NCBI GenBank assembly: GCA_902600485.1
Contig: CACKJD010000005.1
Location: 15,905 to 79,904 of the forward strand
Direction: 5' to 3'
Length of the DNA: 64,000 nt
DNA from: an uncultured Pelagibacteraceae bacterium
GTDB lineage: Bacteria > Pseudomonadota > Alphaproteobacteria > Pelagibacterales > Pelagibacteraceae
The translations under genes and the position numbers were made by a program. Below, in pieces: positions 3,919 to 54,468 of this stretch (positions are counted from its first letter, which is position 1; each line of letters opens with the position of its first letter). The notes under the pieces are model-generated. The model was not told where the DNA came from and ran no database searches. It saw only the letters and a program-made list of their open reading frames with translations.

Positions 3919-5790
3919 ATGGAAAATAATAAACAGTACGAAGTCATAGTAATTGGTGGAGGTCATGCAGGCTGCGAGGCTGCTGCCGCGTCTGCAAGAT
4001 TAGGAGTAAATACAGCTCTTTTTACTAATGATAAATCATCTATTGGTGAGATGTCTTGTAATCCAGCAATTGGTGGCTTAGGTAAAGGCCATTTAGTTAG
4101 AGAAATAGATGCTTTAGATGGTGTTATGGGAGAGGTTGCTGATAAATCTGGTATTCAATTTAAGCTATTAAATAGGAGTAGAGGACCAGCTGTAAGAGGA
4201 CCCCGTACCCAAAGTGATAGATTATTATATAAAAAATATATGCAAGAAAAACTTGTAAACTACTGTAATTTAAGCATTTTTTCTGACTCAGTAAATGGCT
4301 TTATATTTAATAAAAATAGTATAAACGGTATATTAACTTCCTCTGGAAAAGAAATTCACTCTAACAAGGTTATACTTACAACAGGAACATTTTTGAATGG
4401 AATGATACATATAGGTGACAAAAGAACTCCCGCAGGTAGATATAATGAAAAGCCTACTATTGGATTAAGTGAAAAATTGCATAAATATAATTTTAAAATT
4501 GGCAGGTTAAAAACAGGTACCCCGCCCAGGTTAGATGGTAGGACAATTGATTATTCAAATTTAGAAGAACAACATCCAGATGATCAAATATCATTTTTCT
4601 CTTTCTTAACAAAAAAAAATATTAACAAACAAATTAGATGTGGAATTACTTACACCAATGAAAAGGTTCATGAATTGATTTCTAAAAATATTAAACAAAG
4701 CGCAATGTATTCGGGAAGTATTAAAGGAGTAGGGCCAAGATACTGTCCTTCTATAGAGGATAAAATCTATAAATTTAAGGATAAGTCTAGGCACCAAATC
4801 TTTCTGGAACCTGAGGGACTTGAAGATAACACAGTGTATCCCAACGGAATTTCAACATCACTTCCAGCTGATTTACAACAAAAAATATGCAACAATATCA
4901 ATGGTTTAGAAAACGCTAAAATATTACGCCCAGGATACGCAATAGAATATGATTATGTTGATCCAAGGGAACTTTTTTTAACATTAGAAACGAAGAAGAT
5001 AAAAAACTTTTACCTAGCTGGTCAAATTAACGGCACAACAGGTTATGAGGAAGCTGCAGCTCAAGGACTAATAGCTGGAGCTAACGCTGCTTTATCAATA
5101 AAGGGTAAAGAGCCATTAATTCTAGATAGATCCCAGGCATATATTGGCGTTATGATAGACGATTTAGTTACAAAGGGAGTTGCTGAACCTTACAGGATGT
5201 TTACCTCAAGAGCCGAATACAGATTATCTCTAAGATGTGATAATGCTGACCTAAGGCTCACTCCTGTTGGAATTAAGTTCGGTTTAGTTAAATCAGAGAG
5301 AAGGAAATTATTTGAGGATAAATCAAGAGAATTGGAGAAATTGAACAAAAAAATGGATAATTTGAAGATATCACCGTCAGAAGCAGAAAAACATGGAGTT
5401 AAAATCGCAAAAGATGGGGTTTATAGGTCAGCAAACTCTGTTTTAGCTCAAAAAGGAGTAAAATTTAACAAAATTAGGGATATTTGGCCTGAAATAGGTG
5501 ATTATAGTAAAGAAATTGAGGAGCAGATTGAAATTAATGCTCACTATAAAGGTTATATGAAGAAACAAAAGGCGGATATTCTAGCTTTTAAAAGAGATGA
5601 GAGCCTTAAAATACCATCTGATATAAATTATGACAGTTTTTCAGGGCTTTCTAATGAAGTTAAGTCTAAATTTAAGCAAATTAGGCCAAAAACAATGGGC
5701 CAAGCTTTGAGAATAGATGGAATTACTCCAGCAGCTGTATTTATTCTATTGTCACATCTTAAAAGAAAGTCTATTAAGCATATAGCTTGA
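3919..5790 (+). CDS. mnmG: tRNA uridine-5-carboxymethylaminomethyl modification enzyme MnmG
   Basis: [48 protein letters not shown]. Confidence 0.98.
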
Positions 5791-16797: not shown

Positions 16798-17189
16798 TAT
16801 TTTATTAATATTATTATAAGAAAGATCATTTGCACCAAATTTATTAGTACAGACACAAAATGAGATATTTTAAAACTCTTTTCTTCTCCCTTATCTTTAA
16901 ATTTATTTATTAGTGGCATTAAAAAAAAATTAGAAATAAAAAATAAAATACAAATAGACAGCATTAAATAAAATTTAAGACTAAAATCACTTAAATAAGC
17001 GATCAATAAAACAACAATTAGGCTGATACTAAGATTTAGTAAGTAATATAAAGGAAATATACCTCTAATAAATTTTCTTGCATATTCTTCATTTAAAAAT
17101 CTAAAGGTAGATGGTGCAACAATAAATGAAAAAAAAAGCATAATCCCCAAAAGTATTGCAGTTAAATATGTAACGCTTTGTTCAATCAT
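16797..17189 (-). CDS. DUF4149-like membrane protein
   Basis: FF.F.VAP..F...AR.FIR..FP.YY pattern, 4 TM segments, conserved H in FK..H..SV. Confidence 0.7.
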   Translation of the reverse strand: MIEQSVTYLTAILLGIMLFFSFIVAPSTFRFLNEEYARKFIRGIFPLYYLLNLSISLIVVLLIAYLSDFSLKFYLMLSICILFFISNFFLMPLINKFKDKGEEKSFKISHFVSVLINLVQMIFLIIILIK

Positions 17190-17491
17190 TATAAAACAAC
17201 TTCAAATCCCTCAAAATTAGGTGCACCTAAATAAAGATCTTGATGCTGACCAGCATTCTTATGAGCTAACCTGAAGGCTTCTGATTTAGTCCAATTAATA
17301 AAGTCCTCTTTTGAATTCCATATACTATGTGATGCATACAAGGAAAATTCTTCGTTAGTATTTCCCTTAACTAAATGGAATTCTTTAAATCCCGGCACAC
17401 CTTTTAAATGAGTATCTCTATTTTTCCAAACACTCTCAAATTCTTGTTCCTTACCAAGTACAATCTTAAATCTATTCATCGCTATAAACAT
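17189..17491 (-). CDS. ABM-fold monooxygenase, IsdG/HmuQ-like heme-degrading type
   Basis: MFIAMNRF...PGF.EFHL...W...F..WTKSEAFR.AH; Asn, Trp and His at IsdG-like positions. Confidence 0.75.
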   Translation of the reverse strand: MFIAMNRFKIVLGKEQEFESVWKNRDTHLKGVPGFKEFHLVKGNTNEEFSLYASHSIWNSKEDFINWTKSEAFRLAHKNAGQHQDLYLGAPNFEGFEVVL

Positions 17492-17601: not shown

Positions 17602-17808
17602 ATGAAAAAGTTAGCGTTAATTTTATCTTTTGTATTATTTTCGAGTTCTGTTTTTGCAGGTTCATGCCCAATGATGGCAAAAAACCTTGATTCAAAAATT
17701 GCAGAGGCTCAAAAATTAAGAGATGCTGGAATGAAGGCTCACGATAGTGGAGAGCACAAAAAATCAGTAGATCTTCTTAATAAAGCATTAGAAATGTTTA
17801 AAGGATAA
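17602..17808 (+). CDS. Small secreted helical protein (68 aa)
   Basis: GGAGG SD, signal peptide ending VFA, mature part with one Cys and two His. Confidence 0.85.
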   Translation: MKKLALILSFVLFSSSVFAGSCPMMAKNLDSKIAEAQKLRDAGMKAHDSGEHKKSVDLLNKALEMFKG

Positions 17809-17814
17809 ATTCTT

Positions 17815-17850
17815 TGGGGTTTAGGGCACCTAGCAACAGAACGCCCCTAC
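17815..17850 (+). repeat. Structured 3' element, copy A
   Basis: TGGGGTTTAGGGCACCTAGCAACAGAACGCCCCTAC; 24-nt core 23/24 identical to 53227-53250. Confidence 0.85.
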
Positions 17851-38189: not shown

Positions 38190-39244
38190 TTTACTTCAAT
38201 TGACATTTGAATACCTAACCATCTCCAAATATCTCCATCATTAAGTGAGCAATTTATTCTACCTCTCCTGAAAGTAAATTTTTCTCTAAAATCAATTTTG
38301 AGAATATTATCCTCAAATTTCATGATTGAATTTCTCCATTCATTTCCTTCGTTTGAAAAACAATTAATTTTTTGGATATTTTTTTGTTCCTTAAAAAATT
38401 CAATCTCAACAGTTGGGGGATTTTGATCTTTACTTATAAATTTATCACTAGGTTTTAAATTTTTATATGCAATTGGAAATAATTTTAGAATAAACTCAAA
38501 TCTTTTTAATTCGCCATATTTTTCATTTATTGGAAATCTAGGTAGCTCAAAACGATTTTTAGTTAAATCAATTACCCCAGAATGTTGACCAAAACCATAT
38601 TTAAAATTTCCTTCAATAAATTCTTTTTGTTTTAAATTATATTCTCCAAATGGGTAGGAAAAAAAAATTGGGTTATATCCTAATTTTTCCTCAAAAATTT
38701 TTATAGAATTTTTAATATCTCCTTCGAACTCATCGTATGAAAAATCCAACAAATATTCGTGAGTATGTGAATGATTACCTATAAAAGCAAAATCATAACT
38801 TGATACCTCTTTAATTTGGTCCCAGTTCATGTATCCAGGCTTTCCCACTGGTTCTGTAGAGACAAATAATATAAATGGTATCTTTTTTTTCTTAAGAATT
38901 GGCCATGCATTATCATAAAAGGATGTAAACGCATCATCCACAGTTATTAAGATTTTTTTATTTTTCTTTGGATTATTAAATTCATTATCGAACACAGATG
39001 GATCATAATATTCTATATTATTTTTCTCAATTAGTTCGAGTTGCTTTTCAAAAACATCTATCTTAATATTTGTCGATGGATATTTATTTTCATTAAATCT
39101 ATGGTACATAATAGATATAACACCATGGTCATTAGGATAATATTTAATATTTTTTTCTGCATGAGCTGAACTATTTATGAAAAACAAAATCAAAAAAAAT
39201 TTAATAATAGACGCAGCAAATGAAAAAATTATTTTCAAAATCAT
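38186..39244 (-). CDS. Periplasmic polysaccharide deacetylase (NodB family)
   Basis: IMYHRF, ITVDDA, GNHSHTH, FSYPFGEY. Confidence 0.88.
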   Translation of the reverse strand: MILKIIFSFAASIIKFFLILFFINSSAHAEKNIKYYPNDHGVISIMYHRFNENKYPSTNIKIDVFEKQLELIEKNNIEYYDPSVFDNEFNNPKKNKKILITVDDAFTSFYDNAWPILKKKKIPFILFVSTEPVGKPGYMNWDQIKEVSSYDFAFIGNHSHTHEYLLDFSYDEFEGDIKNSIKIFEEKLGYNPIFFSYPFGEYNLKQKEFIEGNFKYGFGQHSGVIDLTKNRFELPRFPINEKYGELKRFEFILKLFPIAYKNLKPSDKFISKDQNPPTVEIEFFKEQKNIQKINCFSNEGNEWRNSIMKFEDNILKIDFREKFTFRRGRINCSLNDGDIWRWLGIQMSIEVN

Positions 39245-49898: not shown

Positions 49899-51971
49899 AT
49901 GTTTAAAATATTCAAAAAAGAAGTTGAAGTTAGTGGAAAGAAAATCAGGTTAGAAACTGGTAAAATTGCAAGGCAAGCAGATGGAGCAATAATTGCTACG
50001 TGTGGAGAAACAGTTGTTCTAGCAACAGTCGTCGGAGCAAAAAAAGTAAATCCTGATGTAGATTATTTTCCATTATCGGTAAATTATCAAGAAAAGTACT
50101 ACGCTGCAGGAAAAATTCCTGGTGGATATTTTAAAAGAGAGGCTAGACCAACAGAAAGCGAAACTCTTATTTCAAGATTGATTGATAGACCTATTAGACC
50201 TTTGTTTCCAGATGAATTTAGAAATGAAGTTCAGTTATTACCTACAGTAATTTCTTATGATAAAGAAAATGAAGCTGATATTTTATCAATTATTGCATCT
50301 TCAGCTGCATTAGCAATATCTGGAATGCCATTTATGGGACCAGTAGGTGCATCAAGAGTAGGTTTTATAGGTGGTAAATATGTTTTAAATCCTACCAAAA
50401 AAGAATTAGAAAATTCAAAACTAGATTTAGTTGTAGCAGGAACCAAGGATGCTGTTTTAATGGTTGAGTCTGAAGCAAAGGGTTTGACAGAACAACAAAT
50501 GCTAGATGCAGTTAAATTTGGTCATGAGGGTTTCGTACCAGTCATAAAAATGATAGAGGAACTTGCAAAAGAATGTAAAAAACCTGATTGGGTTGTTGAA
50601 AAAAAAGATTTATCTGAAGTAAAGAAAAAGTTAGAGAGTGAATTTACAAAAGACCTAAAAAAAGCTTTTTCAATTAAAGATAAACAAGAAAGATCTAATT
50701 TAATATCTGAAGTAACTGAAAAAGCTAAAAAGTTGTACGAAGAAGACGAAAATTATTCAGAACTAGATGTTATGCATGAATTGAAAAATCTTGAAAAAGG
50801 CATTGTGAGAACAGACATACTTAAAAATAAAAATCGTATTGATGGCAGAGGTCTTTCAGATGTAAGACCAATTAAATGTGAAGTTGGAATACTACCAAGA
50901 GTTCATGGATCAGCATTATTCACCAGAGGAGAAACACAAGCAATTGTTACAACAACTCTAGGAACATCTGATGATGAACAAAGAATTGAAAGTTTAGAGG
51001 GTCTACAACGTGAGAGATTCATGCTTCATTATAACTTTCCTCCTTTTTCTGTTGGAGAAACGGGAAGAATAGGAACTGGAAGAAGAGAAATAGGTCACGG
51101 TAAACTAGCATGGAGAGCAATAAATTCATCTTTACCTACAAAAGAAAGTTTTCCATATACATTTAGAATAGTTTCAGAAATCACAGAGTCTAACGGTTCT
51201 TCATCGATGGCAACTGTTTGTGGTTCGTCTTTAGCACTTATGGATGCTGGTGTACCAATTAAAGAGCCAGTTGCTGGTATAGCAATGGGATTAATTAAAG
51301 AGGGAGATGATTTTAGTGTTCTATCAGATATCTTAGGTGATGAGGATCATTTAGGAGACATGGATTTTAAAGTCGCTGGAACTAAAGATGGAATTACTTC
51401 TTTGCAAATGGATATAAAAATAACAGGAATTACATTTGAAATTATGGAGCAAGCTTTAAAACAAGCTAAAGACGGTAGAGTACATATTTTAGATGAAATG
51501 AATAAAGCATTATCTAAATCAAGAGATGATGTGGGAAAACATACTCCTAAAATGGAAAAAATAACTGTTGAAAAGAAAGATATAGCTACAGTTATTGGAA
51601 AAGGTGGTGCAACAATCAGAGAGATTGTTGAAAAATCAGGCGCTAAAGTTGATGTCAATGATGAAGGTGAAGTAACAGTAGCAGCACCAGATGAAGACTC
51701 AAGAAATAAAGCAATGCAAATGATTAAAGATTTAACAGCTAAAGCTGAACTTAACAAAATTTATAACGGTAAAGTTATGAAAATTATGGAGTTTGGTGCA
51801 TTTGTAAATTTTTTGGGAAAACAAGATGGCCTAGTCCATATTTCGGAACTTGCAGATAAAAGAGTGGCTAAAGTAACAGATGTTGTAAAAGAAGGAGATG
51901 AAGTAAAAGTAAAAGTCATAGGTTTTGATAGAGGTAAAGTTAAACTATCAATTAAACAAGCCACCGTATAA
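49899..51971 (+). CDS. pnp: Polynucleotide phosphorylase
   Basis: [40 protein letters not shown] and S1 domains. Confidence 0.98.
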
Positions 51972-51999: not shown

Positions 52000-52680
52000 A
52001 TGAAGACTCTAATGGAATTAAACTTTAGAGAAAAAATATGGTGTCAATTATTCAAAATTAAATTTTTTAGAGAGAAAGTTTTTTATAAGTTAAGTAGATA
52101 CAAAAAAAAACTTCAAACTTTAGATAAATTAAATTTAAACCCTAAATCTGTTGTATTAGATATTGGTGGAAATAATGGTGTAGTTTCAAAATATATTTAT
52201 GATAAATATCGTTGCAATATTGAAATTTATGAGCCTAATCCTTATTGTGTACTAATTCTTAAAGAAATTTTTTTTTATTATCCAAAAGTAAAAGTATATG
52301 AAGCTGCAATCTCAAATAAAAAAAGTGTTAAAAAATTATATTATCATAAACTTGAGACAAATTTAAAAAATATGTCCCTATCTGAAAGTTCAACATTAGA
52401 AAGTATAAAAAGTAATATATCTAAAAAAAAGTTTAAAAAAGTTAAAACTGAAAATATAAAATCAATTTTGAACAAGTATAAAAAAATAAACTTTCTTAAA
52501 ATTGACATAGAGGGTCATGAATATAAAATTTTACCTGAGATAATTAAAAATTTAAAAAAAATTGATATTATTTTTTGTGAGATGCATGGAAGCAAGCATC
52601 GAAAAGAGTTTCAAAACCAATATAAATTATGGAAAAAGAAAATAAAAAAAATTCAAAATAAAAAGTTTTTTGAATGGTAG
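52000..52680 (+). CDS. FkbM-family methyltransferase
   Basis: LDIGGNNG, YEPNP, LKIDIEGHEY. Confidence 0.85.
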   Translation: MKTLMELNFREKIWCQLFKIKFFREKVFYKLSRYKKKLQTLDKLNLNPKSVVLDIGGNNGVVSKYIYDKYRCNIEIYEPNPYCVLILKEIFFYYPKVKVYEAAISNKKSVKKLYYHKLETNLKNMSLSESSTLESIKSNISKKKFKKVKTENIKSILNKYKKINFLKIDIEGHEYKILPEIIKNLKKIDIIFCEMHGSKHRKEFQNQYKLWKKKIKKIQNKKFFEW

Positions 52681-52714
52681 TAATAAACGAAAATCCACCC
52701 CTACAATTTAATTA

Positions 52715-52867
52715 ATGTTCTCATTATCAAAATTAAAAAATATTTTTAAAAAAAACAAATATGTCAAATATTTAGCTATTGGAGGTTTTGCTTTCTTTTT
52801 TATAAAGGGTCTTATTTGGTTAGCAGTCATATTTTCTGTTGGTTTTAGCGCTTTTAACTTCATTTAA
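52715..52867 (+). CDS. Small single-TM membrane protein, 50 aa (not in ORF track)
   Basis: Hand translation MFSLSKLKNIFKKNKYVKYLAIGGFAFFFIKGLIWLAVIFSVGFSAFNFI*. Confidence 0.65.
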   Translation: MFSLSKLKNIFKKNKYVKYLAIGGFAFFFIKGLIWLAVIFSVGFSAFNFI

Positions 52868-52904
52868 ATTTCTGTTCATTTTGCGTTTGATATTCCTTAA
52901 GTAG

Positions 52905-52932
52905 TTGCAATAACTTTTTAAAAATGTAAGCT
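52905..52932 (+). promoter_or_regulatory. Putative sigma70 promoter of the pseudoknot-leader transcript
   Basis: TTGCAA-N16-TAAGCT; predicted start site ~52938-52940, at the first base of the pseudoknot. Confidence 0.55.
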
Positions 52933-52939
52933 TTCTTTA

Positions 52940-52990
52940 ACCATATCTCATGGTGATAAAGAGACCGATATCGCATCGGTTAAAAGCGAG
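52940..52990 (+). ncRNA. Candidate structured 5' leader: two tandem H-type pseudoknots
   Basis: ACCAT-A-TCTC-ATGGT-GATAAA-GAGA then ACCGAT-A-TCGC-ATCGGT-TAAAA-GCGA; compensatory changes in both stems. Confidence 0.65.
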
Positions 52991-53017
52991 TTTTGGAAAA
53001 ACTAACAAGGAGTGTGT

Positions 53018-53209
53018 ATGAAAAGAATGCACAGAGTTCTTAATTCGTTTAGCCGAGGCTCAAAGATCGCTAGGCTAAATCAATTAATGTTCCGAAATTT
53101 AAAATCTGTTGAAGCTAATGGCAATGGCACAAGCGGATACGTTATTAAATCTGGAAAAAACTCTGGAAAAGTTGTTGGGCATTTAAAAAAAGAGCCTAAA
53201 AACATTTAA
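53018..53209 (+). CDS. Small basic hypothetical protein, 63 aa
   Basis: AAGGAG SD then ATG 53018; motif EANGNGTSGYVIKSG.NSGKV..H. Confidence 0.85.
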   Translation: MKRMHRVLNSFSRGSKIARLNQLMFRNLKSVEANGNGTSGYVIKSGKNSGKVVGHLKKEPKNI

Positions 53210-53216
53210 TTAAGAT

Positions 53217-53253
53217 TGGGGTATGGGGGCACCTGGCAACAGAACGCCCCATC
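53217..53253 (+). repeat. Structured 3' element, copy B
   Basis: TGGGGTATGGGGGCACCTGGCAACAGAACGCCCCATC; near-identical to 17815-17850. Confidence 0.85.
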
Positions 53254-53257
53254 AAAA

Positions 53258-53635
53258 CTATTTTTTTGCTAAATCAACAGTTACTTGTTGAGGATAGATA
53301 AATGCTGCTCCAGATTTTCTATCAATTATATAACCAATACCACCACCTAAAATTACATTACCCCATGTTGCTGAGTCCTTGTGTCTTGATGGTAAACTTG
53401 CAACTCCATTAATGTAACCATCTTTAACACATGTTAATGCTAAATTAACTCTTGAACTTGTAATCACTGCACTGCCAGGAGTTGTCAGTGTCCAAGTACC
53501 TTTATCATTGGAAAGTGTACATGTTGCACCTTGAACGTTTGAAGTAACCGTTATGTTCTGAGAACTACCAGACATTGTTGAAGCACATGATGTTAGTAAA
53601 AACAACGATGTTAACAAAATAAAAAATTTTTTCAT
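53258..53635 (-). CDS. Hypothetical lipoprotein (PEGA-like beta domain)
   Basis: Lipobox LTSC; TVTSNVQGATCTL; GNVILGGGIG..ID..SGA. Confidence 0.75.
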   Translation of the reverse strand: MKKFFILLTSLFLLTSCASTMSGSSQNITVTSNVQGATCTLSNDKGTWTLTTPGSAVITSSRVNLALTCVKDGYINGVASLPSRHKDSATWGNVILGGGIGYIIDRKSGAAFIYPQQVTVDLAKK

Positions 53636-53682
53636 AATAGATATTTATAAAACGTACATTAATTTTTTTGATTTTTAAAGCG

Positions 53683-54468
53683 TTAAGTGATATTTTTTGG
53701 ATCAGGCATTCCTACCTTATTATAACCAGCATCAACATAGTGTATTTCACCTGTAACTCCGCCAGCCATATCACTTAGTAAATATAAAGCAGAATTTCCT
53801 ACATCAAGATTATCAACGTTTCTTTTTAAAAAAGAATGATCAGCGTTCCATTTATATAAAAATTTTGCATCTCCAATTGCTGATGCTGCTAAAGTTTTTA
53901 TAGGTCCTGCACTAATTGCATTAATTCTTATACCTTTTGAACCTAAATCTCTTGCAAGATATTTCACACTTGCTTCAAGCGCAGCTTTACATACTCCCAT
54001 CACGTTATAATTTGGAATAGCTTTATTGGCTTCATAACTTAACGTAATCATACTCCCACCTTGTTTCATAATTTTAGATGCTTCTTTTGCAACTTCTGTA
54101 AATGAGAAACAAGAAATCAACATGCTTTTTAAAAAATTTTCTCTAGTTGTATTTAGGTATTCCCCTGATAATTCAGATTTATCTGAAAATGCTATTGCAT
54201 GAACTACAAAATCTATTTCACCCCATTTAGATTTTATATCTTCAAATAATTTTGATACTTCCTCTTTTTTCTCAACATCACAACTAAAAGTAACATTTGA
54301 ATTTAATTTTTCTGCTAAAGGAACAACTCTTTTCTTTAGCGCATCACCTAAATAGGTAAATGCAAGTTCTGCTCCTGCTTCTGCAAGTTTTTGAGAAATC
54401 CCCCAAGCAATTGATCGCTCGTTAGCAACACCCATGATCAATCCTTTTTTACCTCTCATCAAACTCAT
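53683..54468 (-). CDS. fabI: Enoyl-ACP reductase
   Basis: GVANERSIAWGI, YNVMGVCKAALE, NAISAGPIKTLA. Confidence 0.96.
   Translation of the reverse strand: MSLMRGKKGLIMGVANERSIAWGISQKLAEAGAELAFTYLGDALKKRVVPLAEKLNSNVTFSCDVEKKEEVSKLFEDIKSKWGEIDFVVHAIAFSDKSELSGEYLNTTRENFLKSMLISCFSFTEVAKEASKIMKQGGSMITLSYEANKAIPNYNVMGVCKAALEASVKYLARDLGSKGIRINAISAGPIKTLAASAIGDAKFLYKWNADHSFLKRNVDNLDVGNSALYLLSDMAGGVTGEIHYVDAGYNKVGMPDPKNIT

What the first reader, a model, noticed from the sequence alone, without database searches (positions are those of the whole stretch)
52905..53253. Self-contained ~315-nt unit: pseudoknot leader, 63-aa basic ORF, tmRNA-like 3' element
Promoter, double-pseudoknot 5' end, strong SD, a small Lys/Gly-rich protein (…EANGNGTSGYVIKSGKNSGKVVGHL…) and a structured 3' end form a cassette inserted between pnp-FkbM and the fab operon. 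Structure at both ends suggests an unusually stable or dual-function RNA. The pseudoknot-ORF-pseudoknot layout is loosely tmRNA-like, but there is no tRNA-like domain. This is my best candidate in the window for an undescribed system.
Basis: inference. Interest (0 to 1): 0.7.

Follow-up and report, generated by a model that had tools for sequence, protein, structure and literature searches.

The report
Floating SAR11 small gene with pseudoknot ends
A real, self-contained 350-base gene of the marine bacterium SAR11 encodes a 63-residue protein of unknown function that also occurs in SAR11 phages; its mRNA starts with two conserved pseudoknots and ends with a copy of the last 33 bases of the tmRNA gene, but it is not a tmRNA-like system.

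Summary

- **ORF.** It is a real gene: 97 database homologues, at least 469 metagenome loci, dN/dS about 0.21. It belongs to PHROG 32989, an unknown-function family found in pelagiphages.
- **Leader.** It always accompanies the ORF. Both pseudoknots keep pairing through compensatory changes between two clades. No Rfam family matches it.
- **3' element.** It is homologous to the last ~33 nt of the SAR11 two-piece ssrA gene. Nothing else of ssrA is present: no tRNA-like domain and no conserved resume codon.
- **The 3' element is optional.** Only 20 of 57 unique units carry it; the rest have ordinary GC hairpins at the same place. The same element is a dispersed SAR11 repeat (second window copy at 17816-17847).
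- **Mobility.** The whole promoter-to-hairpin unit sits in more than 20 genomic contexts, so it behaves as a floating cassette of the flexible genome.

Most likely it is a stable, well-expressed small mRNA with protected ends. The leader's role (stability or autoregulation) and the protein's function are inferred, not shown.

The parts
52905..52932 (+). Promoter: -35 TTGCAA (52905-52910), 16-nt spacer, extended -10 TGTAAGCT (52925-52932). The predicted start site is A52939/A52940.
   Evidence: Position-specific conservation of -35 and -10 in 65 unique upstream sequences from many contexts (alignments). The generic consensus scan did not call it.
52940..52963 (+). 5'-terminal pseudoknot PK1. 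S1 is ACCAU (52940-44) with AUGGU (52950-54). S2 is CUC (52947-49) with GAG (52961-63). L1 is AU. L3 is the A-rich GAUAAA.
   Evidence: S1 changes CG to GC in L190-L193. S2 changes C-G to G-C between clades (CUC/GAG versus GUC/GAC). There are no non-pairs in 29 unique leaders. S1 is also predicted by RNAalifold.
52964..52989 (+). Second pseudoknot PK2. S1 is (A)CCGAU (52964-69) with AUCGG(U) (52975-80). S2 is UCGC (52971-74) with GCGA (52986-89). L1 is one variable nucleotide. L3 is UUAAAA.
   Evidence: S2 is UCGC/GCGA in clade A and CUAC/GUAG in clade B, so three of four pairs change on both sides. S1 is CCGAU/AUCGG versus CUGCAU/AUGCAG, UCGCAU/AUGCGA and CCGCAU/AUGCGG.
52988..52996 (+). 5' strand of a predicted long-range helix, GAGUUUUGG. 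It pairs with 53053-53061 and encloses the SD and start codon in the loop.
   Evidence: RNAalifold on 32 clade A sequences gives 9 pairs with only one-sided (wobble) changes. Clade B has an analogous GGUUGAA:UUCAGCC (read). This helix is weakly supported.
53007..53012 (+). Shine-Dalgarno AAGGAG, 5 nt before the ATG.
   Evidence: Sequence; conserved in all aligned units.
53018..53209 (+). ORF of 63 codons: MKRMHRVLNSFSRGSKIARLNQLMFRNLKSVEANGNGTSGYVIKSGKNSGKVVGHLKKEPKNI. It is a basic protein and a member of phrog_32989.
   Evidence: 97 homologues. At least 469 metagenome loci. 65 clusters at 50% identity among 1.84 billion representatives. dN/dS about 0.21. phrog_32989 at E 1e-9. AF2 pLDDT 73.8, with a helix at 2-27 and three strands.
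53053..53061 (+). 3' strand of the long-range helix, CCGAGGCUC, inside codons 12-15. Synonymous sites are nearly frozen across codons 9-13.
   Evidence: RNAalifold. Third-position entropy is 0-0.2 at codons 9, 10, 12 and 13, against about 1.2 in the C-terminal half.
53218..53250 (+). 3' terminal hairpin and putative H-type pseudoknot copied from the 3' end of the two-piece ssrA gene. The stem is GGGGC (53226-30) with GCCCC (53246-50). The loop is ACCUGGCAACAGAAC. The upstream GGGGU (53218-22) can pair with the loop's ACCU.
   Evidence: Rfam alpha_tmRNA model positions 321-355. Alignment with SAR11 ssrA genes. The stem covaries across Alphaproteobacteria. Strain-to-strain homology and a metatranscriptome contig both end at 53250.
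52941..52949 (+). 5' arm (CCAUAUCUC) of a possible 5'-3' panhandle with GGGGUAUGG at 53218-53226. It competes with the S1 stem of PK1.
   Evidence: It appears in the MFE fold. Complementarity is 9 of 9 in 17 of 47 unique 5'/3' combinations and 8 of 9 in 6 more. Units with a non-tmRNA hairpin have the perfect complement GAGAUAUGG.
17816..17847 (+). Second copy of the ssrA-3'-like element in the window (GGGGU-UUA-GGGC-ACCUAGCAACAGAAC-GCCC), 8 nt after the stop of a 68-aa signal-peptide ORF (17602-17808). It is not part of the unit, but it shows that the 3' module is a dispersed repeat.
   Evidence: One mismatch in 21; none expected in shuffles. Sequence and ORFs.

Best explanation
The locus is an independently transcribed small-protein gene that SAR11 carries as a promoter-to-terminator cassette in its flexible genome.

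- Transcription starts from its own sigma-70-type promoter, 0-2 nt before the first of two compact tandem H-type pseudoknots. Each has a 5-6 bp stem, a 3-4 bp second stem and an A-rich third loop.
- An unstructured A-rich spacer follows, with an exposed strong SD.
- Next comes a 63-codon ORF for a basic protein (one long helix plus a small beta-sheet). The protein belongs to a family shared with pelagiphages (phrog_32989).
- The mRNA ends in a GC hairpin or pseudoknot. In this lineage that element is a copy of the last ~33 nt of the two-piece ssrA gene.

Shown:
- the anatomy;
- the coding status of the ORF;
- the strict linkage between leader and ORF;
- the homology of the 3' module to ssrA;
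- its interchangeability with ordinary hairpins;
- the many genomic contexts.

Inferred:
- The base-paired 5' end and the 3' hairpin (in about half of units also a 9-bp 5'-3' pairing) shield the ~310-nt mRNA from end-dependent decay and define its 3' end, giving an abundant, stable message.
- The strongly sequence-conserved leader is additionally a binding site for a trans factor. My best guess is the encoded basic protein itself, acting in autogenous translational control as with the S15 and S4 leader pseudoknots.

The protein's cellular role is unknown. Its phage relatives point to phage-host interplay or nucleic-acid binding.
For: - Unit conserved as one block, with flanks unrelated beyond the -35 and beyond the last C of the hairpin. 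More than 20 different neighbour combinations among 87 loci.
- Pseudoknots supported by compensatory changes. All 70 occurrences of the P1 motif lie in front of this ORF. No Rfam match to the leader at E <= 10.
- ORF. Phage homologues.
- 3' module: homology to the ssrA terminus. Present in 20 of 57 unique units and replaced by other GC hairpins, some followed by U-tracts. It lies 2-22 nt after the stop codons of unrelated same-strand genes, namely pnp in L082 and L101, small ORFs in L028, L107, L099, L173, L177 and L180, and window 17816.
- Fold z-score -4.69.
- Metatranscriptome contigs cover 52973-53250 at word depth 84-320, against 0-34 just upstream.
Against: - No direct mapping of RNA ends. 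Only assembled contigs were available. Their breaks and depth steps can reflect strain branch points and pooling of many strains that share the unit but not its flanks.
- The hairpin has a 15-nt loop and no adjacent U-tract; the T-run starts 12 nt later. It is therefore not a textbook intrinsic terminator.
- Stability alone does not explain near-invariant loops and linkers in the leader.
- Autoregulation is pure inference. The protein has no recognised RNA-binding domain and no significant structural neighbour.
- The 5'-3' pairing competes with PK1, is absent from half of the family, and rests on compatible rather than compensatory changes.
Confidence: 0.6

Rival explanations
1. The ssrA-like 3' element is primarily a DNA recombination site. 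On this reading promoter-to-terminator cassettes such as this one are inserted or exchanged at copies of the ssrA 3' terminus, both at ssrA itself and at secondary copies such as the one after pnp. This would resemble island integration at tmRNA genes or integron attC sites. The RNA hairpin would be a by-product.
For: - Direct-repeat arrays of the element sit downstream of ssrA, with tiny ORFs between copies (L028: 3 copies; L107: 3 copies).
- Several copies carry extra upstream ssrA sequence (GTTAC-AAAGT...) and follow no same-strand ORF.
- The unit lies 1-1.5 kb downstream of ssrA in L170 and L175, and a copy of the element lies directly upstream of the unit in L173, L177 and L180.
- Near-identical strains diverge exactly after the last C of the element: lipoprotein, DUF805, SOD-like or small TM genes follow, or fabI directly.
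- In L082 and L101 the element sits directly after pnp without the unit.
- Published work links one SAR11 island to the tmRNA gene and finds no canonical mobile elements in SAR11 islands (PMC11796062).
Against: - No integrase or other recombinase was seen next to any copy examined (the window itself was not searched for one). No second copy of the element flanks the lipoprotein insert or the FkbM-unit insert in the window.
- More than half of the units lack the element.
- No attP-like fragment was found in viral contigs; the 8 exact hits are whole tmRNA genes.
- A terminator is in any case the natural edge of a cassette exchanged by homologous recombination.
Confidence: 0.2
2. The tandem-pseudoknot leader is a ligand-sensing riboswitch, or a sensor of temperature or ions, that controls translation of the small protein.
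For: - Sequence conservation is extreme, including loops and linkers, across 55-100% protein identity.
- The compact H-type pseudoknots with A-rich third loops recall the preQ1-I and SAM-II/SAM-V architectures. SAM-V occurs in Pelagibacter (PMC2704228).
- A possible alternative long-range helix spans the ribosome-binding site.
Against: - There are no junction nucleotides between the two stems of either pseudoknot, so no obvious pocket.
- The SD is not sequestered in any supported structure.
- No Rfam riboswitch model matches.
- The regulated gene is not a metabolic or transport gene.
Confidence: 0.1
3. The unit is a tmRNA-like or ssrA-derived functional RNA: a decayed ssrA paralogue or a dual-function RNA whose ORF is incidental.
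For: The 3' end is truly ssrA-derived. The reading frame contains an 'ANGNG' stretch that resembles the start of a tag. Nucleotide-level constraint lies over the 5' part of the ORF.
Against: - ARAGORN finds nothing at default or relaxed settings and only noise at very low thresholds.
- There is no T-arm, CCA or 5' acceptor strand.
- The Rfam score is below the gathering score and comes from the last 35 model positions plus an AU-rich flank, with 280 model positions skipped.
- The 'A' of ANGNG is not conserved: D-T-N-A-N-G and N-V-N-D-N-G occur in relatives.
- dN/dS is 0.21 over the full ORF, and phage homologues are ordinary genes.
- The real ssrA lies elsewhere in SAR11, between ppdK and thyX (PMC2704228).
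Confidence: 0.03

Closest known systems
Two-piece (permuted) alphaproteobacterial tmRNA gene, Rfam RF01849 alpha_tmRNA
   Same: The last ~33 nt of the unit (GGGGU-NN-GGGGC-ACCUGGCAACAGAAC-GCCCC) are homologous to the 3'-terminal hairpin or pseudoknot of the ssrA coding piece. The 15-nt loop is identical, and the stem covaries across Alphaproteobacteria.
   Different: Nothing else of ssrA is present. There is no acceptor piece, T-arm or CCA, no 5' GGGGGUG acceptor strand, no PK1, and no resume codon or degradation tag. The score is 35 bits, against 224 for a genuine SAR11 ssrA.
phrog_32989 (pelagiphage hypothetical proteins, e.g. HTVC019P AGE60630.1, HTVC100P gp26, Kolga gp9)
   Same: The same protein family: E 1e-9 to the PHROG profile, 40-50% identity, and a shared core K-x-V-x-x-N-x-N-G-T-x-x-Y-x-I-K-x-G-x-N-x-G-K.
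   Different: The phage versions are 53-54 aa and lack the C-terminal ~10 residues. They sit inside phage operons without the pseudoknot leader or the ssrA-like 3' element. Function is unknown in both.
Autoregulatory pseudoknot leaders of ribosomal-protein mRNAs (E. coli rpsO/S15; alpha-operon/S4 double pseudoknot) and 5'-terminal stabilising stem-loops (ompA type)
   Same: A small basic protein is encoded behind a conserved pseudoknotted 5' UTR with an exposed SD. The structure sits at the very 5' end of the transcript. This comparison rests on established knowledge of those systems; the resemblance is of architecture only.
   Different: There is no sequence or family relationship. Here the two pseudoknots are separate, tandem and upstream of the ribosome-binding site rather than including it. 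The protein is not a known ribosomal protein. No binding has been shown.
tRNA/tmRNA-gene 3'-end duplications at genomic-island borders, and REP-like intergenic repeats
   Same: A short piece of the ssrA 3' end recurs in direct orientation next to small accessory genes. Arrays of it lie downstream of ssrA. PMC11796062 notes a tmRNA-linked island in SAR11.
   Different: Copies also lie far from ssrA (after pnp; window 17.8 kb), mostly in sense orientation just after stop codons. No integrase is adjacent. The cassettes are only 0.2-1.2 kb long.

Membership tests
tmRNA (ssrA), two-piece alphaproteobacterial type | tRNA-like domain: acceptor stem with G3:U, T-arm, 3' CCA | tested here: not met
   ARAGORN finds no tmRNA in the window. 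Alignment with five SAR11 ssrA genes shows no counterpart of GUGGGGGCAGUACCCAC-CACCUCCACCA or of GGGGGUGAACUAGAUUCGAC.
tmRNA (ssrA), two-piece alphaproteobacterial type | Tag reading frame with a conserved Ala resume codon and a hydrophobic C-terminus (..ALAA) | tested here: not met
   SAR11 tags are ANESYALAA and ANQKFALAA. Here the frame ends ..KKEPKNI, the 'A' codon is not conserved among relatives, and the ORF has its own SD and ATG with dN/dS 0.21.
tmRNA (ssrA), two-piece alphaproteobacterial type | Rfam RF01849 gathering score (50 bits) | tested here: not met
   35.1 bits, with only model positions 1-39 and 321-355 aligned and 280 skipped. A genuine SAR11 ssrA scores 223.9 bits.
tmRNA (ssrA), two-piece alphaproteobacterial type | 3'-terminal hairpin or pseudoknot of the coding piece | tested here: met
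   Identical 15-nt loop and GGGGC/GCCCC stem.
phrog_32989 (phage protein family, function unknown) | Significant match to the family profile over most of its length | tested here: met
   E 1e-9, profile positions 4-53 of 54. tblastn hits in 5 pelagiphage records. Alignment.
Rho-independent (intrinsic) terminator | GC-rich stem-loop immediately followed by a U-tract | tested here: inconclusive
   A 5-bp GC stem is present, but the loop is 15 nt and the T7 run starts 12 nt downstream. The consensus scan does not call it. Some homologous units have a hairpin plus U-tract at the same position.
Known riboswitch or leader families (preQ1, SAM-II/SAM-V, guanidine-II/III, r-protein leaders and others in Rfam 15) | Match to a curated covariance model | tested here: not met
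   No hit to 52650-53700 at E <= 10 other than alpha_tmRNA at the 3' end. None of the motifs described for Pelagibacter in PMC2704228 fits.
Integron gene cassette / attC | IntI-type integrase and attI nearby; attC with paired R/L boxes; promoterless cassettes | not tested
   No dedicated integrase search of the window was run. The cassette carries its own promoter, which is atypical for integron cassettes. None of the loci examined showed an integrase next to the repeats.

The most novel reading that the evidence does not exclude
In SAR11 the 3'-terminal pseudoknot of ssrA has been co-opted as a portable module. On this reading it both ends or stabilises transcripts and serves as the landing or exchange site for tiny promoter-to-terminator gene cassettes, of which this phage-related 63-aa gene with its double-pseudoknot leader is one. 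That would give an integrase-poor, streamlined genome an integron-like way to shuffle its many small flexible islands.
Probability: 0.15. Interest if true: 0.85.

Novelty: new variant of a known kind. Interest (0 to 1): 0.6.

Why it matters
SAR11 is the most abundant bacterial lineage in the ocean, and it has very little non-coding DNA and few known regulatory RNAs. Three things here appear undescribed.

- **A new leader motif.** The tandem-pseudoknot 5' leader is conserved and supported by covariation, is absent from Rfam 15, and does not fit the Pelagibacter motifs described in PMC2704228.
- **A protein family shared with phages.** The small protein is widespread, appears well expressed, and is shared between SAR11 and several types of pelagiphage. 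This makes its role in phage-host biology directly testable.
- **Reuse of the ssrA terminus.** The ssrA 3' terminus serves as a dispersed 3'-end module that lies at junctions of variable gene cassettes. If it has a DNA-level role, it could help explain how SAR11 maintains dozens of tiny flexible islands without canonical mobile elements.

The protein is annotated only as 'hypothetical' (MDC3076978.1) where it is annotated at all.

Tried and rejected
1. **Divergent or permuted ssrA gene.** I first suspected this because the Rfam model length (355) is close to the unit length. I rejected it after aligning the unit with real SAR11 ssrA genes and after the ARAGORN runs.
2. **Relic of the acceptor piece at 52693-52712.** The stretch 'TCCACCCCTACAA' resembles 'TCCACCAATTACAA' by eye. 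I did not pursue it: it sits just after the FkbM stop (52678-52680), and it was neither tested statistically nor checked for conservation.
3. **attP copies in phages.** An exact 20-mer scan of IMG/VR returned only 8 contigs, all with complete two-piece tmRNA genes.
4. **Terminal inverted repeats of a mobile element** (CCATATCTC...GAGATATGG). Rejected because the conserved promoter lies outside the left repeat and travels with the unit.
5. **Shared leader between host and phage genes.** A 22-of-27 match upstream of the HTVC019P homologue looked promising. It lies in what is evidently an unannotated phage ORF with codon-like variation, so it is coincidental.
6. **Protein function.** Pfam, NCBIfam, PADLOC and a PDB profile search gave no hit. 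The first AF2 model was poor (pLDDT 55). The second reached 73.8, but Foldseek found nothing below E = 1; the top hits are weak KOW/SH3-like matches.
7. **Expression.** Only Logan contigs of metatranscriptomes were available, with no raw reads, so transcript ends could not be mapped.
8. **Viral scan with the deep protein alignment.** It was repeated successfully with the phage protein.
Full report
**What is at the coordinates**

Window 52905-53253 lies between pnp (49899-51971, +), an FkbM-family methyltransferase (52000-52680, +; TIGR01444, E 7e-20) and a 50-aa membrane ORF on one side. On the other side are a 125-aa lipoprotein-like ORF (53258-53635, -) and fabI, fabB and fabA (-).

The stretch contains:
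- a promoter: -35 TTGCAA at 52905-10 and an extended -10 TGTAAGCT at 52925-32;
- a ~78-nt leader;
- SD AAGGAG at 53007-12;
- an ATG at 53018 that opens a 63-codon ORF ending at 53209;
- a GC hairpin at 53218-53250.

The 317-nt predicted transcript folds at -86.8 kcal/mol, against -66.1 +/- 4.4 for shuffles (z = -4.69).

**The 3' element is a piece of ssrA, and the rest is not**

No Rfam family reaches its gathering score anywhere in the window. A permissive scan gives one hit, alpha_tmRNA RF01849, at 53178-53253. It scores 35.1 bits (the gathering score is 50) with E 2.8e-8. Only the model's two ends are used, and 280 positions are skipped.

I then scanned one genome per species for the loop 14-mer ACCTGGCAACAGAA. 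It returned 120 loci, mostly Alphaproteobacteria. In these, ARAGORN places the motif at the 3' end of permuted tmRNA genes. The SAR11 tags are ANESYALAA and ANQKFALAA.

A genuine SAR11 ssrA (L070) scores 223.9 bits, and the motif aligns to the last 35 model positions. Alignment of the window with five SAR11 ssrA genes shows homology only from GGGGU onward. The T-arm, the CCA, the 5' acceptor strand and the tag have no counterpart. ARAGORN finds nothing in the window.

In SAR11 the real ssrA lies between ppdK and thyX (also PMC2704228). The hairpin stem covaries across Alphaproteobacteria: GGAGGC/GCCUCC, GCAGGC/GCCUGC, GAAGGC/GCCUUC and others. An upstream GGGGU can pair with the loop's ACCU to give an H-type pseudoknot. 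Those bases are invariant, so that pairing cannot be tested by covariation.

**The ORF is a real gene with phage relatives**

- A database search returns 97 proteins, nearly all 63 aa, at 59-100% identity. They carry no Pfam domain and no name beyond 'hypothetical protein [Candidatus Pelagibacter sp.]'.
- At least 469 metagenome stretches encode relatives.
- A profile search of 1.84 billion representatives finds only 65 clusters, all about 63-66 aa. Their shared core is NGNGTSGYxIKxGxNxGKVLxH.
- Among 45 unique 63-codon alleles the median dN/dS is 0.21, and third positions vary most.
- Pfam, NCBIfam, PADLOC and PDB sequence searches are negative.
- AF2 with a deeper alignment gives pLDDT 73.8, with a helix at 2-27 followed by three strands. 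It has no significant structural neighbour.
- tblastn finds 53-54-aa homologues (40-50% identity) in pelagiphages HTVC019P, HTVC100P, HTVC168P and Kolga.
- All of these, and the window protein (E 1e-9), match phrog_32989, a family of unknown function. At least 234 IMG/VR loci encode that phage form.
- The phage genes lie inside operons and have neither the leader nor the 3' element.

**The leader is a conserved tandem pseudoknot**

All 70 occurrences of the first-stem motif in the fetched loci lie upstream of this ORF. Two clades exist:
- Clade A has 55-100% protein identity to the window and occurs in many contexts.
- Clade B has 49-55% identity and always lies between a flavodoxin-like gene and rlmN.

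I parsed 29 unique leaders:

| Element | Stem | Clade A | Variant or clade B |
|---|---|---|---|
| PK1 | S1 | CCAU/AUGG | GCAU/AUGC in L190-193 |
| PK1 | S2 | CUC/GAG | GUC/GAC |
| PK2 | S1 | CCGAU/AUCGG | CUGCAU/AUGCAG, UCGCAU/AUGCGA, CCGCAU/AUGCGG |
| PK2 | S2 | UCGC/GCGA | CUAC/GUAG |

Only one cell in all stems is a non-pair. The single unpaired L1 nucleotides are the ones that vary. Both third loops are A-rich and 6-7 nt long. Clade B inserts an extra hairpin that itself covaries (ACUCU/AGAGU versus ACUUA/UAAGU).

The compensatory changes come from few independent lineages, so they count events rather than sequences. Even so, four consecutive S2 pairs are kept with three double changes, which is hard to get by chance.

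RNAalifold adds a 9-bp long-range helix between GAGUUUUGG (52988-96) and codons 12-15 (53053-61). Only wobble-type changes support it. Synonymous sites are nearly frozen across codons 9-13.

In 65 unique upstream sequences, the -35 (TTGnnA) and -10 (TAnnTT) keep a fixed distance from the first stem. The start site therefore falls 0-2 nt before PK1.

**The 3' module is interchangeable and dispersed**

Only 20 of 57 unique units carry the ssrA-like element, all of them in clade A. The others have unrelated GC hairpins at the same place, some with a U-tract.

Conversely, the element occurs without the unit:
- at window 17816-17847, 8 nt after a 68-aa signal-peptide ORF;
- directly after the pnp stop codon in L082 and L101, where fabI follows without the unit;
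- in arrays downstream of ssrA in L028, and in L107, with 59-182-aa ORFs between copies;
- at a dozen further sites.

About half of the copies not attached to the unit lie 2-22 nt after a same-strand stop codon. The others have no preceding same-strand ORF and retain more upstream ssrA sequence.

Near-identical strains (100% protein identity) diverge immediately after the last C of the element. Different reverse-strand genes follow it. Three metatranscriptomes contain a form that joins 53250 to 53683, which lacks the lipoprotein gene.

**A possible 5'-3' pairing**

The MFE fold pairs CCAUAUCUC (52941-49) with GGGGUAUGG (53218-26). Of 47 unique combinations of 5' and 3' ends, 17 have 9 of 9 complementarity and 6 have 8 of 9. 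Units with a non-tmRNA hairpin carry GAGAUAUGG, the perfect Watson-Crick complement, which differs exactly at the two G-U positions. The pairing competes with PK1 and is missing from half of the family. I treat it as a lineage-specific extra rather than a core feature.

**Mobility**

The block from just upstream of the -35 to the end of the hairpin is found behind many different genes: pnp, rnhA, a Gfo/Idh-type oxidoreductase, an aminopeptidase, a YgfZ-like gene, a SHOCT protein and others. In L170 and L175 it lies 1-1.5 kb downstream of ssrA. In the closest relatives (L136, L138) pnp is followed by the unit without FkbM, so FkbM is an additional insertion in this window.

**Expression**

Marine metatranscriptome assemblies contain the unit. 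One contig spans exactly 52973-53250 at word depth 320, against 25 upstream and 16 downstream. This fits an abundant discrete RNA. It is equally what an assembly graph produces when many strains share the unit but not its flanks, so I count it only as suggestive.

**Interpretation**

The anatomy is that of a self-contained small gene whose mRNA is structured at both extremities. The coding status, the leader structure, the ssrA origin of the 3' module and its optional nature are shown.

How it works is inferred. A base-paired 5' terminus and a 3' hairpin are classical protections against end-dependent decay, which is established knowledge for RNase E/RppH and for 3' exonucleases. The near-invariance of the leader's unpaired bases suggests a specific partner, and the encoded basic protein is the most economical candidate.

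The tmRNA-like reading is rejected. The recombination-site reading of the 3' element is not excluded, and it is the most interesting open possibility.

**Comparison with the literature**

The Pelagibacter RNA survey (PMC2704228) lists the tmRNA, riboswitches and several candidate motifs. None has this architecture or context. A 2025 SAR11 pangenome study notes one island linked to the tmRNA gene and an absence of canonical mobile elements (PMC11796062). I found no description of the leader, of the protein family's presence in both host and phage, or of dispersed copies of the ssrA terminus.

Noticed in passing
window 17602-17847: A 68-aa signal-peptide ORF (MKKLALILSF...EMFKG) is followed 8 nt later by a second copy of the ssrA-3'-like element. 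Homologues of this ORF and of the neighbouring ABM-domain gene (17189-17491, -) lie directly upstream of the 63-aa unit in L175 and L174, so these small genes travel in the same flexible regions.
   Followed up: partly
L028 2180-3390 and L107 460-2560: Arrays of three direct copies of the ssrA-3'-like element. In L028 the first copy is the end of ssrA itself. The copies bracket tiny ORFs (59-182 aa, mostly membrane proteins). No integrase was seen in these loci.
   Followed up: partly
L041 7510-7560, L169 118-170, L165 925-975: A sub-family of the repeat shares a longer upstream block (CGTACATTCAATATATTAACTAAAATTATA-GGCACCTGGCAACAG...). This points to a longer repeated unit of unknown nature. 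A similar CGTACATTAAT occurs at window 53653-53663, between the lipoprotein gene and fabI.
   Followed up: no
L121-L128 (IMG/VR contigs): Eight contigs classed as viral, one of them 242 kb, carry complete permuted two-piece tmRNA genes. Seven have the tag ADENLALAA and one (L125) AKTINADENLALAA. They could be phage-encoded tmRNAs or host DNA in viral bins.
   Followed up: partly
window 52000-52680: The FkbM-family methyltransferase gene is absent from the closest relatives of this locus. In L136 and L138, pnp is followed after ~308 nt by the 63-aa ORF. FkbM is therefore a strain-specific insertion just 28 nt after the pnp stop.
   Followed up: partly
L082 (reverse strand), ~130 nt downstream of the element at 5459: A truncated second copy (GGGGGAAACAGAACGCCCC) lies just before the end of fabI. 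Two element copies therefore bracket a ~130-nt spacer in a strain that lacks the unit.
   Followed up: no
L149 1100-1160: A partial tandem duplication of the leader (PK1, PK2 and part of the spacer) lies directly upstream of the complete leader.
   Followed up: no
L216 3878-4036 (HTVC019P 38692-38850): The annotated 114-nt gap before the phage homologue shows codon-like variation across related viral contigs (M/V-IDKFLYAFFGSIDRVFEKLNK...). It probably holds an unannotated ORF that overlaps the start of the 54-aa gene.
   Followed up: partly
L198-L215 (clade B loci): The divergent clade of the unit always lies between a flavodoxin-like NAD(P)H dehydrogenase gene (-) and rlmN (+), 64-81 nt upstream of rlmN. 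It has an ordinary GC hairpin in place of the ssrA-like element. The organism was not identified.
   Followed up: no
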